Assembly: GCF_964194155.1 (NCBI RefSeq) | Contig: NC_135903.1 | Location: 31,620,001-31,684,000, forward strand | Direction of reading: 5' to 3' | DNA length: 64,000 nucleotides | From: Cetorhinus maximus | Taxonomy: Eukaryota | Shown: piece by piece, positions 24,870-30,260 of the stretch | How positions within the stretch are numbered: position 1 is the first letter of the stretch | Layout: every line of letters begins with the position of its first letter | The notes under the pieces: model-generated | Told to the model about the DNA's origin: nothing | The model's input: the letters and a program-made list of their open reading frames with translations, nothing else | The model's database searches: none | Translations under genes and position numbers: made by a program

Positions 24870-25534
24870 AACATAGAATCATAGAAAGTTCACAGCACAG
24901 AAAGAGTCCACTTGTTCCATTGTGTCTACGCTGGGTGAAAAATGAGCCACCCAGCCTAATCCCACTTTCCAGCATTTGGTCCGTAGCCCTGCAGATTACA
25001 GCACTTCAGGTGCATATCCAGACACCTTTTAAATGAGTTGAGGGTTTCTGCCTTTATTACTCTCAGACAGTGAGTTCCAGACCCCTACAACCCACTGGGT
25101 GATTTCCTCATCTCCCCTCTAATCCTTCTACCAATCACTTTAAATCTATGCCCCCTAGTCACTGACCTCTCTGCTAAAGTAAATAGGCCCCTGCCATCCA
25201 CTCTGTCCAGGTCCCTCACAGTTTTGTACATCTCAATCAAATCTCCCCTCAGCCTCCTTGGTTCCAAGGAGAACAACCCCAGCCTATCCAATCTTTCCTC
25301 ATAGCTGCAATTTTCCAGTCCTGGCAACATCCTCGTAAATCTCCCCTGTACCCTCTCTAATGCAGTTACATCCTTTCTGTAAGGAGGTGACCAGAACTGC
25401 ACAGAGTAGTTGTGGCCTAACTAATATTTTATATAGTTCCAGAGTAACCTCCCTGCTCTCATATTCTAAACCTCAGCTAATAAATTAAAGGATTCCATAC
25501 GCCTTCTTAACCACCTTGCCAACCTGACCTGCTA
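24870..25534 (-). mobile_element. CR1 LINE 3' part (host of the R2 insertion; continues at 30149)
   Basis: ORF 25085-25402 reads QFWSPPYRKDVTALERVQGRFTRMLPG...LGLFSLE.RRLRGDLIE. The reading frame AGQVGKVVKKAYG starts abruptly at 25534. Confidence 0.9.
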
Positions 25535-26273
25535 AGTAAAAGATTGATATAAAATATCTAATGCATATTTTGAGAGTTTATGTGTCTCAGCTGCAAAGCC
25601 TTGATTGGTAAAAGATACCTCATTCCCAGTGAAACACAGGGACGGGAGATATTAAAATGTAAAACCGGTGAAAATTATAAAATCTTTGTTGCCACAGGAC
25701 TAACCTAAGCGAGAACTGGGTACGTGAACTAGGGAAAAATTTGTTCAAATTGACAAGCAGATAAGGATCCCTCATCATTTCAAGTGTGATGTTATCAAAT
25801 GGAAATGATAAAATGAAATAAACAGTTTTATTACTATAACAGATAAAAGTTAAAATGTAAAATCTAAAAATAAAGCATTTACAAATAAAAGGAAAAACAT
25901 AAAATATAAAAAGGATAGGCATGTGAAATCAATCGTCCATAAAAATTGGTACAATTTGTATCGCTAAAGCATCGCTAGTCGAGGGACTTGACTTGAAGTG
26001 ATCTACCTGTAAAAATCTCATTAAGGAATGATTTCGTTCATACCATTTACCTCAGGAACCGAGTACAAAACCAAAAAAATTCACATTCCGGCTACCGGTT
26101 AAGGATTTGATTTTGTCAGCCAAATGCTGATATTTCTTGATCTTCTCCTCCCAGGCCTTATCCAATGAGTTATTGGTCCTCAAATCTAATTGTAACATCA
26201 ACAACTGACACTTACAAAAGATTATATTGAGTTTGAAGAGTGATCCGTCATCAGTCCTGATATAAGTCTCCAA

Positions 26274-27715
26274 ATTTTTAAAAATTAATTTACGGAATGT
26301 GGGCTTCACTGGCTAGGCTAGCATTTACTGCCCGTATTTATTTGCCCTTGAGAGGGTAGTGGTGAGCTGCCTTCTTGAACCGCTGCAGTCCATGTGGGGA
26401 ATTTACAACCACAGTGCTGCTAAGGAGGGAGTTCCAGGATTTTGACCCAGCCACAGTGAAGGAACGGTGATATATTTCCAGGTAGGGTTGGTGAGTGGCT
26501 TGGAGGAGAACTTCCAGATGGTGATGTTCCCATGTATCTGCTGTCCTTGTCCTTCTAGATGGTAGCAGTCGTGGGTTTCGAAGGTGCTGTGTAAGAAGCC
26601 TTGGTGAGTTTCTGCAGTGCGTCTTGTAGATGGCACACACTGCTGCAACTGTTCATTAGGAGGGAGTGAATGTTTGTCGAAGGAGTGCCAATCAAGTGGA
26701 CTGCTTTGTCCTGGACAGTGTCAAGCTTCTTGAGTGTTGGAGCGGCACTCATCCAGGCAAGTGGGGAGTATTCCATCACACTCCTGACTTGTGTCTTGTA
26801 GATGGTGGACAGGCTTTGGGGAGTCTGAGTTACTCACTGCAGGATTCCTAGCCTCTGACCTGCTCTTGTAGCCACAGTATTTAATTGGCTAGTCCAGTTC
26901 AGTTTCTAGTAAATGGTAACTCCCAGGATGTTGATAGTGGGGGATTCAGCGATGGCGGTACCATTGGAAAGTCAAACAGTGATAGTTAAATTCTCTCCTG
27001 TTGGAGATGGTCATTGCCTGGCACTTGTGTGGCATGAATGTTACTTGCCACTTGTCAGCCCAAGCCTGGATATTGTCCAGGTCTTGCTGCATTTGCACAT
27101 GGACTGCTTCAGTATCTGAGGAGTCACGAATGGTGTTGAACATTGTGCAATCATCAGCGAACATCTCCACTTCTGACCTTATGATGGAAGGAAGGTCATT
27201 GATGAAGCAGCTGAAGGTGGTTGGACCGAGGACACGACCCTGAGGGACTCCTGCAGTGATGTCCTGGAGCTGGGATGATTGACCTCCAACAGCCACAACT
27301 ATCTTTCTTTGTGCTAGGTATGACTCCAACCAGTGGAGAGTCACCACTCCCCACCCCGATTTCCATTGGCTCCAGTTTTGTTAGGGCTCCTTAATGCTAC
27401 AATGAGTCAATTGCTGCCTTGATGTCGAGGGCAGTCACTCTCACCTCAGGAGTTCAGCCCTTTTGCCCATGTTTGAACCAAGGCTGTAATGAGGTCAGGA
27501 GCTGAGCGTCCCTGGCAGAACCCAAACTGGGCGACAGTGAGCAGGTACAAAAACAAAAATAGCAGGAAAAACTCAGCAGGTCTGACAGCATCTGTTATAC
27601 ATATATGTGGAATACAGTTAACGTTTCGAGTCCGTATGACTCTTCATCAGAACAGTGAGCAGGTTATGGTTAAGCAAGTGCCGCTTGATAGCACTGTTGA
27701 TTACCCCGTTCATCA
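26274..27715 (-). mobile_element. 5'-truncated APE-type LINE nested in the R2 element
   Basis: ORF 26946-27347 reads GVPQGRVLGP..MFADDCT; same family as 16104-19303. It splits the R2 sequence between KHG and LETYIR. Confidence 0.9.
27547..27651 (-). mobile_element. Short Penelope pLTR-derived insertion with an intact hammerhead core and a 13-bp TSD
   Basis: TSD ACAGTGAGCAGGT at 27534-27546 and 27652-27664. Minus strand GTT-CTGATGA-A-GAGTC-ATACG-GACTC-GAAA-CGT-T-AAC. Confidence 0.8.
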
Positions 27716-30008
27716 CTGGATACCCATGTTTAAGCACTTGGACTTTGAGGAGATTGAGGATTTTATTATGCCGATGAATCCTTGCGTTTTTAATATGTAA
27801 ACAGCTACCGGAGATTTGGGAGATTGTCTCATTTAATACATTGCATCCTCTCCATTTCGTAATATTTCCAGGTCTACCGAATGATAAAAAAGAAACCTAG
27901 TTGGATAGGCATTTCCCCCGAGTAGGACTTTAATAAAAACGGACTGTTTAAAATAGTTTAAAAGTAGCCAGTGATTCGAGATATTATTATAAAAACAAGA
28001 AATGCCAATGCCTTAATAGTTAAGTGCAGTCCACCTCTTAAATACATATTCACACCAATTAGGATACATTTCACTATTTTGACTGCTGGGTGTCATTGGG
28101 CATGAGGCACAATTCAACCTGGGGCGCTTTAGCTGAAACGTCTTAAATTATATTAAGGTTGTAAATTTGACTCATTTTTGAACGAAATCCACGCCACCGT
28201 GTAAAAAGGAAGCCTTCACGGTGATTTTATCAGGTCCTGGTGCGGGATCTTTTCTTAAATTGATCAATAATTGTTTTAATCCCATCTTCCCCAATCAAAT
28301 TAAATAATTGAGAAGTAGCGGCCATTCTAGAGTACTTGGAAAATTTACCTAAATGCACCTTGTTATTAGTCTAAGACAATCTCTGTATGAAATGCTCTTC
28401 CAAATCACCTATATTCAAAGGGCTCGAAACTTGATTAGAGCCACCCATCAACCCGTCTAGCCAAGCCTTTCTTGTTAGCTTTTTACAGAGTTGAGCTTCT
28501 TTAAATTTGTTTCTTTTTAGCAAATCCCTTTCTGAATCCGGTATTTTTAAAGGGTGGATTTTTATTTACACAATTCACATGATTTATTGTATCCAATTAA
28601 CTTTACTAGCTTTTGAGCCTATATTAGTTACCTTGCCGAGTATCTGACCCACCAAACAACTCATTTAATTATTATTGGTGCCCTTTTTGTCAATCAACTT
28701 AATTAACGTTAAGGCGTCAAATTTACCCTATTTATTTGGTCCTGTCCCCAAACTGCTACATTATCCCTATTTACATTCGGTTCCTCCTCAGATCTTTGGG
28801 GAATCGTTACATTAACCTCGTCATCGGATGAAAGTGTAAAACCTTCAAGTGAATTAACGTTAACATTTATATTCTCAGAGGCATTTGGATTATTTCTAAA
28901 TTTAGTCATTTGAAATTTGTTTGTTAGTTTTGGTTACTAATATCTTAGCTAGCACAACATTAATATTTTTATGGCCAACATGTTCTTTCTCTAAATAAAG
29001 GAGAAACACCCCTTTGGACCAAATAGAACTTTTGTTTGCAACTGGCCGAGATCGGTCTGAGGCAGCTAGCGATTCTTTTTTGATTTCGTAGTTCTGGGTG
29101 CACACGGATGCTGTGCTAAGAGCTCTTTGTCTTAAAGTTCTTCGCACACGAAGGATAATTATAGATTATATTGACATTGACCTCTCGTGTGCCTCCATTG
29201 CATTTTGAATATTAGTATGTGATGGGATGGTATTCGCCAGTCCTCTGACATCGACTACGAATAACCAAAATCTTAGAACTGTTATGATTATTCCTATAAT
29301 GTCTCCTAAAATTAGTTATAGAGTTTAAAATTACATCACAAATTTAGAATTAAATTGATTACAGGGATAAATTACCTTAATATCATTATATAAGGTATAT
29401 GTTGAACCTATTTAAAGCAATAGTTCTAGTGCCTTATTGATTCACAGGGGTGTCACTGATATTGATATTAGTAGGAGGTTTCAAATTTGTATTATAAAAA
29501 GTTAAACGTTGATAAAATCTCAGTTGTAGGTAACAGCCCAGCCTCTGGGGATGTTCTCTGATGTATCACACTTCTGTTCTCTTGAGCTGCCTCAATCTTC
29601 GCATCCATATTAAGTAATAATTGATTGATATCTTCCAAGCCTGAAGTCTCATTTAATAGCAAAATAGAACCAGTAAATGGTTTTATGAGATCAGCCTCAT
29701 CAGTTTGTGTATGTGAGGATTTGATTAATGTCATGGTGTTAGCAGACGTACCCACTGCACCCCGGTCAAGGCAACAACAGCATTTAACAAAATTGTTAGT
29801 CAGGGAATGTCTAATCAAAGCGGGGATGTTTTTCAACTGGTTAACATCCCAACCGGGAGGGACAAGTTGATCAGGACCATTGTTCATTTAATTTTCGTGA
29901 ACCCTAATGATCCTCCACCTGCGAAGAGAAACGGTTTATCCAAACCGCCCGTCACCTGCCAGCTGCATTCGCCATGGTGCCAGGATCCAGCAAACCGAGA
30001 GGGAGCGG

Positions 30009-30146
30009 GAATCAAGGGAAAAAAATTCCTAGATTAGCCACAACGATTGATTGTCATTGATCGCGACACAACATTACCAGGGGCACCATGTGGATGTTTG
30101 ACCCGCTACGGGTTAGAAATTATAACACCCATAGCCATAGGTCCCA
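30009..30146 (-). ncRNA. Degenerate HDV-like self-cleaving ribozyme at the R2 5' end
   Basis: Elements in order: GGGAC (P1), J1/2 hairpin GCTATGGGT/ACCCGTAGC, GGGTCAA (P2), ACA-TCCACAT-GGT (P3/L3), GCCCCT (P1'), GG (P1.1), P4 stem, GGCTAA (J4/2, putative catalytic C at 30037), TTGATTC (P2'). Confidence 0.68.
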
Positions 30147-30148
30147 AG

Positions 30149-30260
30149 TCAGGGATCTGTGGACATTCACTCCAAGGTCCCTCACTTTCTCCACATCTCT
30201 CATTATCCTCCCATTTATTGTCTCTGCCTTGCTTGACCTCCCAAATTCTTGATTACCAAC
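30149..30260 (-). mobile_element. CR1 LINE, upstream continuation of the 24870-25534 copy
   Basis: Minus strand reads RDLGVNVHRSL, which precedes (KV)AGQV.KVVKKAYG in CR1 ORF2. Confidence 0.8.

What the first reader, a model, noticed from the sequence alone, without database searches (positions are those of the whole stretch)
25520..30170. R2 insertion site is a 28S-target mimic (AA(G)G^TAGC) inside CR1 LINE ORF2: possible retargeting to another transposon
Seen on the minus strand: the 5' flank is ..CAC AGA TCC CTG A and the 3' flank is TA GCA GGT CAG GTT, so one CR1 frame (HRSL..AGQV) is split by the R2. The 3' junction is exactly TAGC (25531-25534). Known: R2 nicks 28S at CTCTTAAGG^TAGCCAA, gives precise 3' junctions before TAGC, and leaves small deletions or additions at the 5' junction. 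Inference: restoring the CR1 motif SLKVA gives an empty site of CCCTGAA(G)G^TAGCA, with 3 nt lost and CTT added at the 5' side. Because CR1 is very abundant here, it could offer many alternative R2 landing sites.
Basis: partly seen in the sequence, partly recalled or inferred. Interest (0 to 1): 0.85.

Follow-up and report, generated by a model that had tools for sequence, protein, structure and literature searches.

The report
R2 lineage that targets CR1 LINEs
A decayed family of R2 jumping genes, whose relatives normally insert into ribosomal RNA genes, sits again and again at one spot inside another jumping gene (CR1) that resembles the ribosomal target, and it likely shifted its preferred target to that spot.

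Summary
Confirmed, and larger than one locus. The window holds a decayed three-zinc-finger (lineage A) R2 that splits a CR1 ORF2. The empty CR1 site reads CCCTGAAGG^TAGCAGG (75 of 100 listed copies) and matches the 28S target at 28 of 47 bases, ungapped and in register. The copy belongs to an extinct family ('B'). 18 of 25 B loci with a readable junction, on many chromosomes, sit at this exact CR1 position, against 1 of 31 dispersed copies of the genome's live 28S R2 ('A') and its sister lineages. Insertions are independent: the 5' junctions differ, 5'-truncated copies keep the upstream CR1 half, hosts interleave with empty CR1s, and B diversified under purifying selection. B also lacks the 28S-identical leader and 28S tails that family A shows, and lacks a zinc-finger-1 arginine kept in 55 of 55 homologues (13 of 13 readable B copies). 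Best reading: a real target shift to CR1 (0.62). Main rival: an rDNA-resident R2 whose best off-target was CR1 and whose rDNA copies were purged (0.3). No intact B copy was found, so specificity is untested.

The parts
30149..30242 (-). Upstream half of the host CR1 ORF2 (5'-truncated host, about 94 bp), ending ...CACAGATCCCTGA; the AGG of the empty site is missing
   Evidence: 87% match to the upstream side of an empty CR1 locus; sequence; empty site
30146..30148 (-). CTT at the 5' junction (extra bases or the first bases of the element)
   Evidence: the sister copies C13a and C15a also have TT before the GGG
30020..30145 (-). R2 5' leader with an HDV-like ribozyme fold (P1, a J1/2 hairpin, P3); leader no longer identical to 28S
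   Evidence: alignment of 8 B 5' ends; 85% of cells paired against 37-46% in slid controls, but no better than column shuffles; naming it HDV-like rests on recalled R2 ribozyme anatomy; Rfam gave no relevant hit
28908..29340 (-). Decayed ZnF3-ZnF2-ZnF1 and Myb region; the ZnF1 position equal to R2Tg Arg315 is Ile (ATC)
   Evidence: tblastn to residues 176-321 of the intact 28S R2; codons; mapping to R2Tg
27715..28530 (-). Remains of the pre-RT region and the CCHC zinc-knuckle region; the RT core between them is deleted near 28215
   Evidence: matches to residues 455-516 and 1047-1164, none to 517-1046; two blocks 2 kb apart in copy C3b are adjacent here
26275..27714 (-). Later nested LINE fragment (RT and 3' end; family not determined); it carries a 106-bp element at 27547-27652 with a 12-bp target duplication
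   Evidence: Pfam RVT_1, E 8e-15; edges
25929..26274 (-). Restriction-like endonuclease region and end of the R2 frame
   Evidence: 41% identity to residues 1167-1266 of the intact R2; translation
25535..25928 (-). AT-rich R2 3' UTR, ending ...ATCTTTTACT
   Evidence: 8 genome matches at 67-100%; 3'-end profile
24874..25534 (-). Downstream half of the host CR1, starting TAGCAGG and running to the CR1 3' tail
   Evidence: 83% match over 667 bp to an empty CR1; closest sequence is an empty CR1 at 91%

Best explanation
This is one copy of an extinct lineage-A R2 family that sits repeatedly at a single position in CR1 ORF2 resembling the 28S target, and that likely inserted there by its own target-primed reverse transcription after shifting its preferred target from 28S rDNA to this site. 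Shown: the same TAGC register as 28S, independent junctions, enrichment over the 28S family, long evolution under selection, loss of the 28S-identical leader and of a conserved ZnF1 arginine. Inferred: the protein bound the CR1 bases that mimic 28S at -25 to -20 and -10 to +4, nicked before TAGC and primed cDNA there; a self-contained 5' ribozyme would free the RNA from any read-through transcript, so rDNA would no longer be needed; the changed ZnF1 helix would relax or alter reading at -21/-20, where CR1 has A-T instead of G-T.
For: (1) Site use. 18 of 25 B loci with a readable junction are at this CR1 position and 1 more at a second CR1 site. By 3' ends, 16 of 22 B against 1 of 31 dispersed copies of family A and its sister lineages, Fisher p 7e-8. 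(2) Independence. 12 loci show the upstream CR1 half, each with its own 5' junction. The 5'-truncated copies C19a (starts near residue 1123), L267 (about 240 nt lost) and C26b keep the upstream half attached. For 15 of 16 hosts the closest sequence is an empty CR1, not another host, and only 1 gappy alignment column separates hosts from empty copies. A family-A-type copy (L133) hit the same site on its own. (3) Mimicry. The commonest letters of 25 empty host-type CR1s match 28S at 28 of 47 positions from -43 to +4 without gaps; 38 of 2.03 million background positions reach 26 or more. Kept: G-25, G-23, T-20; T-20 is the most conserved base in R2Tg off-targets (PMC12222951, passages). (4) Selection. 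B copies differ at 31/25/54% of codon positions 1/2/3 (28,774 codon pairs), and the CR1 site is used in at least five sub-branches. (5) Loss of rDNA traits. 0 of 22 B 3' ends carry 17 nt or more of 28S, against 9 of 31 for A, p 0.007. Full-length A copies and the lineages L270 and L124 start with a 28S-identical leader; B leaders are sub-branch-specific. (6) Protein change. The position of R2Tg Arg315 is Val, Ile or Ala in 13 of 13 readable B copies and Arg in 55 of 55 motifs matched among 120 homologues.
Against: No intact B copy was found, so nothing was tested biochemically. 7 of 25 B loci are elsewhere, so the preference is not strict. 6 of the 18 CR1-site loci show only the 3' junction; no upstream CR1 half was found in 10-25 kb, so some may be composites or later deletions. 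B is more decayed than most A copies (0.2-3.1 against 0-0.7 stops per 100 codons), so the A control is not age-matched. rDNA turnover would erase an extinct rDNA family, a bias that the review PMC13580325 warns of (passages). L152, next to B in the tree, ends in a 10-nt 28S match; counting it and L270 gives 18 of 27. The two structure papers differ on ZnF1: base-reading in PMC12222951, mostly backbone contacts in PMC12180492. The leaders of C7a and C15a still match 28S at 10-11 bases. The codon filter favours conserved residues, although close pairs such as C13b-C11b (15/10/11%) show that it does not create the third-position excess by itself.
Confidence: 0.62

Rival explanations
1. Family B lived in 28S rDNA like other R2s and was never retargeted. 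Its rare escapes went to the best and most abundant look-alike, the CR1 site, and its rDNA copies were later purged by array turnover.
For: The CR1 site is an in-register mimic of 28S. Family A also hit it once and hit the second CR1 site once. Family A shows that 28S R2s leak to many ^TAG sites in this genome. Some B leaders still resemble 28S -25 to -15. B is older than most A copies. Non-28S insertion at look-alike sites is known for R2Bm (PMC10499050, passages).
Against: Leaks of A and its sisters go to this site in only 1 of 31 cases, and 9 of 31 carry 28S tails, against 0 of 22 for B. Older non-B lineages (L153, L156, L152, L154, L281, L228, L270) show 0 of 7 CR1-site junctions. B lost the 28S-identical leader and the otherwise invariant ZnF1 arginine.
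Confidence: 0.3
2. One or a few R2-in-CR1 composites arose once and were spread as a unit by the CR1 machinery or by segmental duplication.
For: 6 CR1-site loci, plus the two found with a junction-bearing query, lack a visible upstream half; C15c shows an inverted 5' piece. All inserts lie in the same sense as CR1. One B locus (L269) is segmentally duplicated 7 times.
Against: 12 different 5' junctions; truncated R2s joined to the upstream CR1 half; inserts differ at 54% of third codon positions while most host pairs are 84-90% alike and mix with empty CR1s; hosts come from more than one CR1 subfamily. It can explain a minority of loci at most.
Confidence: 0.04
3. B inserted loosely at ^TAG sites, and the CR1 excess comes from survival or detection bias.
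For: The searches return lower bounds, and one query included CR1 flank.
Against: The two loci found only were left out of the counts. Only 80 exact 32-nt copies of the host-type site remain in 4.0 Gb, so the target is a tiny share of the genome. Survival cannot pick one nucleotide position in a neutral repeat. Searches found no new independent B loci.
Confidence: 0.04

Closest known systems
Lineage A (clade A) R2 elements of vertebrates: R2Tg/TaGu, PlaMe, and the shark R2s of Hassan et al. 2026 (PMC13188248)
   Same: Three ZnF, Myb, RT and restriction-like endonuclease; 3' junction before TAGC; B nests among shark R2s beside family A with support 1.0. By eye, family A is very close to the listed R2-1_CCar N-terminus.
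   Different: No B copy found in 28S; most sit in CR1; ZnF1 arginine and 28S-identical leader lost. That paper defines R2 by insertion in 28S; 'CR1' occurs 0 times in its main text and in its supplementary table file.
R8 (18S) and R9 (second 28S site)
   Same: R2-superclade lineages that changed target (PMC5035012, passages).
   Different: Their new targets are still inside rDNA; here it is a dispersed, Pol II-type retrotransposon and the new site mimics the old one in register.
R2NS-1_SMed and R2NS-1_CSi; Porifera R2-homologous elements
   Same: R2 relatives found outside rDNA.
   Different: Those are described as non-specific or of unassigned target; B concentrates on one nucleotide position (18 of 25).
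Non-28S insertions of R2Bm and off-targets of R2Tg
   Same: Land at sites that keep the upstream motif and the nick-site motif (PMC10499050, PMC12222951).
   Different: Those are rare and scattered; family A here behaves like that, family B does not.
Transposon-targeting non-LTR elements such as Tx1L (recalled, not checked)
   Same: Use of another transposon as a harmless multicopy target; PMC5035012 lists transposons among known targets of non-LTR elements.
   Different: From recall, Tx1L has an APE endonuclease and targets a DNA transposon; this is an R2 with a restriction-like endonuclease that targets a LINE.

Membership tests
R2, lineage A | Single ORF with RT of R2 type | tested here: met
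   Sister B copies give Pfam RVT_1 and align to the intact R2; the window copy has lost the RT core by deletion
R2, lineage A | C-terminal zinc knuckle and restriction-like endonuclease | tested here: met
   3 of 3 PDB hits are R2 proteins, E about 1e-27
R2, lineage A | Three N-terminal zinc fingers plus Myb domain | tested here: met
   Aligned in B copies, decayed; mapped to R2Tg and PlaMe through family A
R2, lineage A | Phylogenetic placement within R2-A | tested here: met
   B is sister to family A and other shark R2s, FastTree support 1.0, on 57 rows with 150 or more columns
R2, lineage A | 5' HDV-like self-cleaving ribozyme | tested here: inconclusive
   P1, hairpin and P3 pair in 85% of cells, above slid controls but not above shuffles; no Rfam hit; cleavage not testable
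R2, lineage A | Precise 3' junction before TAGC | tested here: met
   window 25534; most B ends
Canonical 28S-specific R2 | Insertion in the 28S rDNA site | tested here: not met
   0 of 22 B 3' ends with a 28S tail; every rDNA-contig hit that was inspected was family A; extinct rDNA copies could have been lost
R2NS (non-specific R2) | No recurrent target sequence | tested here: not met
   18 of 25 loci at one CR1 position
CR1-specific R2 (proposed) | Protein prefers the CR1 site over 28S | not testable with these tools
   needs an intact B-type protein and a nicking or TPRT assay

The most novel reading that the evidence does not exclude
An R2 lineage left rDNA altogether and lived for a long time as a parasite of a LINE. 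It used a chance 28S look-alike in CR1 ORF2 as a stepping stone, dropped its 28S-derived leader, changed an otherwise invariant DNA-contacting arginine in ZnF1, diversified into several sub-branches inside CR1 copies, and died out as that CR1 subfamily decayed. It would be a natural record of how R2 specificity can be moved.
Probability: 0.55. Interest if true: 0.88.

Novelty: new variant of a known kind. Interest (0 to 1): 0.77.

Why it matters
R2 is the model of stable site-specificity. The target changes named in the papers read are within rDNA (R8, R9) or losses of specificity (R2NS). A lineage that concentrates on one site in another retrotransposon is a different outcome and shows a route for target switching: through a high-copy look-alike. 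The genome holds a built-in comparison: an intact 28S R2, about 1,400 exact empty CR1 sites by one pattern, some 30 B loci and over 30 dispersed copies of the 28S family. It also names one candidate residue and two target bases (-24, -21) to test. That bears on efforts to retarget R2 proteins for gene insertion and on predicting their off-target sites in repeats.

Tried and rejected
4-bp target duplication: rejected. Single composite spread as a unit: rejected as the general cause. Rfam scan of a B 5' end: only a chance IMES-5 hit, E 4.4. Ribozyme covariation: not above shuffles, so not used as proof. Search for an intact B-type protein: a B ZnF-Myb query found 0 of 1241 candidates (weak evidence); the family-A query listed 120 proteins, and none of the 20 placed in the tree fell inside B. 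Search for the missing halves of 8 loci in neighbouring DNA found none. The host-subfamily comparison was off by one base (12 of 47) and was redone (28 of 47). One search included CR1 flank by mistake; its two exclusive loci (L177, L178) are left out of all counts. The row B_C21b mixed two elements and is included in the pooled codon figure; it was trimmed. Left out of the B counts: 5 loci without a readable junction (C13b, C15b, C11b, C5067, L280) and 2 of uncertain family (L272, L277). The RT6a loop differs between A and B, but neither matches the R2Tg Lys-Asp pair, so no claim is made. Earlier findings of this scan: none returned. Literature searches listed no paper whose title or abstract start reports an R2 that targets CR1; subscription papers, Repbase and the Fell et al. 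2025 dataset were not searchable and may hold such a case.
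Full report
What is at the locus. On the minus strand a CR1 ORF2 frame is split. The upstream half ends ...CACAGATCCCTGA at 30149 and the downstream half starts TAGCAGG at 25534. Between them lies a 4.6-kb decayed element with zinc-finger, Myb, zinc-knuckle and endonuclease remains that align to an intact R2 of the same genome. A sister copy's endonuclease region hits only R2 structures. 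The window copy has lost its RT core and has a later LINE fragment nested at 26275-27714. The window lies on contig C26 of a 4.0-Gb genome; the closest named proteins to its intact R2 are from sharks.

The empty site. A pattern made of the two flanks with three free bases has 1412 exact matches and 0 in the reversed control; 75 of the 100 listed read AGG (my count). The genome's own 28S site reads CTCTTAAGG^TAGCCAA (248 matches; context). Among 25 empty CR1s of the host type, found through downstream sequence only, the commonest letters match 28S at 28 of 47 positions from -43 to +4 with no gap. The other CR1 set gives 26 of 47. In 2.03 million background positions only 38 reach 26 or more, and many of those are R2 leaders or this same CR1 site. 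The matches include G-25, G-23, A-22, T-20 and TC.CT.AAGG^TAGC; the mismatches include -24 and -21. In R2Tg the bases at -25, -24, -23, -21 and -20 are read by the protein, and T-20 is the most conserved base in off-targets (PMC12222951, passages).

Two kinds of R2 in this genome. Family A is intact (1289-residue frame) in rDNA contigs with the usual junction before TAGCCAAATGCC. It has also left many dispersed copies, nearly all ending before TAG or TAA-like bases. Its full-length copies mostly start with the 28S-identical leader from -28. Family B, the window's family, is AT-rich, about 30-60% identical to A in protein pieces, and decayed everywhere it was found. In a protein tree of 57 rows B and its nearest relatives form a clade (support 1.0) beside family A and other shark R2s.

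Census of B. R2-only queries gave 30 independent B loci; the last two searches added only duplicates of L269. 25 have a readable junction. 18 are at the CR1 site of the window: 10 with both halves (window, C3b, C15a, C1a, C7a, C26b, C19a, C16b, C10c, L267), 2 with the 5' half only (L266, L279) and 6 with the 3' half only (C3a, C21a, C12a, C10b, C7b, L268). 7 are elsewhere: C16a in a second CR1 site in the endonuclease region, and C2a, C21b, C11a, C13a, L269, L274. Two more CR1-site copies came from a query that held CR1 flank and are not counted. By 3' ends the contrast is 16 of 22 for B against 1 of 31 for dispersed A and sister copies (p 7e-8), or 1 of 22 without the 28S-tailed ones (p 5e-6) (junctions read; tandem arrays counted once).

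Independent insertions. The 12 upstream junctions all differ in how much CR1 is lost and what follows. C19a is a 1.5-kb 5'-truncated copy joined directly to the upstream CR1 half; L267 and C26b are shorter truncations of the same kind. A composite moved as a unit cannot give this. Host CR1 halves mix with empty copies in a tree, 15 of 16 are closest to an empty copy, and they share no clear diagnostic base; the empty set was picked by likeness to one host, which favours this result. The inserts are far more diverged than their hosts: 31/25/54% at codon positions 1/2/3. This points to a lineage under purifying selection, with the CR1 site used in at least five sub-branches. A family-A-type copy (L133) sits at the same site, and L069 (A) and C16a (B) share the second CR1 site, so these are real landing sites for R2 proteins.

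Did B leave rDNA? Three indirect signs say yes. First, 0 of 22 B ends carry a 28S tail of 17 nt or more, against 9 of 31 for A (p 0.007). Second, A and the older lineages L270 and L124 keep a 28S-identical leader, while B leaders are specific to each sub-branch and pair with the element's own P1 strand, including an A-U to G-C change in 2 of 7 rows. Third, the ZnF1 position that equals R2Tg Arg315 is Val, Ile or Ala in 13 of 13 readable B copies. It is Arg in 13 of 16 rows of family A and L124, the other 3 being one-step CpG changes, and in 55 of 55 motifs matched among 120 homologues. Against this: B is older than most A copies, rDNA turnover erases extinct families (warned of in PMC13580325, passages), L152 beside B ends in a 10-nt 28S match, 6 loci lack a visible upstream half, and PMC12180492 describes ZnF1 contacts as mostly non-specific (passages).

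Mechanism. Shown: register, recurrence, independence, selection, and the sequence changes. Inferred: the B protein bound the 28S-like bases of CR1, nicked the bottom strand before TAGC and primed reverse transcription there, with variable small deletions at the 5' side. Its own ribozyme would release the RNA from read-through transcripts; all CR1-site copies lie in the sense of the host. I give 0.95 to independent R2 insertion at a mimic site, 0.62 to a true shift of preference, and 0.3 to an rDNA-resident family with CR1 as its best off-target.

Comparison with what is known. Target changes named in PMC5035012 (passages) and PMC13580325 (passages) are R8, R9 and non-specific R2NS families. 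PMC13188248 reports shark R2s selected by 28S flanks, with no mention of CR1 in the main text or in its table file (passages and 1 of 16 supplementary files searched; the other 15 were not read). PMC10499050 describes rare non-28S insertions at look-alike sites (passages). Eight searches listed nothing on an R2 that targets CR1; only listings were seen for the other papers. Tx1L and the HDV-like ribozyme anatomy are recalled. The family is an R2 by structure and descent, fails the 28S-insertion criterion, and is not non-specific. I rate it a new variant of a known kind, interest 0.77.

Noticed in passing
L064 (G000:C798) and dispersed loci L066-L083, L125-L133, L140, L170: The live 28S R2 is unusually leaky: over 30 dispersed copies on chromosomes, some 99% identical to the rDNA copy (L079, L069), mostly before TAG, with the 28S leader from -28.
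   Followed up: partly
L074, L125, L140 (both junctions): Dispersed family-A copies with long target duplications of about 141, 24 and 70 bp; most other copies have none.
   Followed up: partly
L014:3500-4350 (C16a) and L069: A second CR1 site, in the endonuclease-coding region, hit once by family B (an 820-bp internally deleted copy) and once by a 5'-truncated family-A copy.
   Followed up: partly
L065 (C13a) and L153: A B copy and a copy of another R2 lineage end at the same position of a third, unidentified repeat.
   Followed up: no
G000:C3:7.9-9.4 Mb; C26:41.1-41.3 Mb; C144, C227, C410, C459, C499, C735: Old family-A copies amplified many times inside tandem or segmental arrays.
   Followed up: no
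L270, L124, L153, L156, L152, L159, L154, L172, L228, L229, L278, L281: Several further extinct R2 lineages coexist in this genome as dispersed fossils.
   Followed up: partly
L082, L154, L131, L281: Dispersed R2 copies with short 28S tails of about 17-50 nt, which suggests read-through RNA used as template.
   Followed up: no
L219 (C15c) 1900-2170 region: A B 3' UTR with an inverted 5' piece, like twin priming, joined to the CR1 3' half with no upstream half seen.
   Followed up: partly
window 27547-27652: A 106-bp element with a 12-bp target duplication inside the nested LINE; similar copies occur in many fetched loci.
   Followed up: no
L052, L053: Short 28S pieces centred on the R2 target site lie on chromosomes C7 and C22 without an R2.
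   Followed up: no
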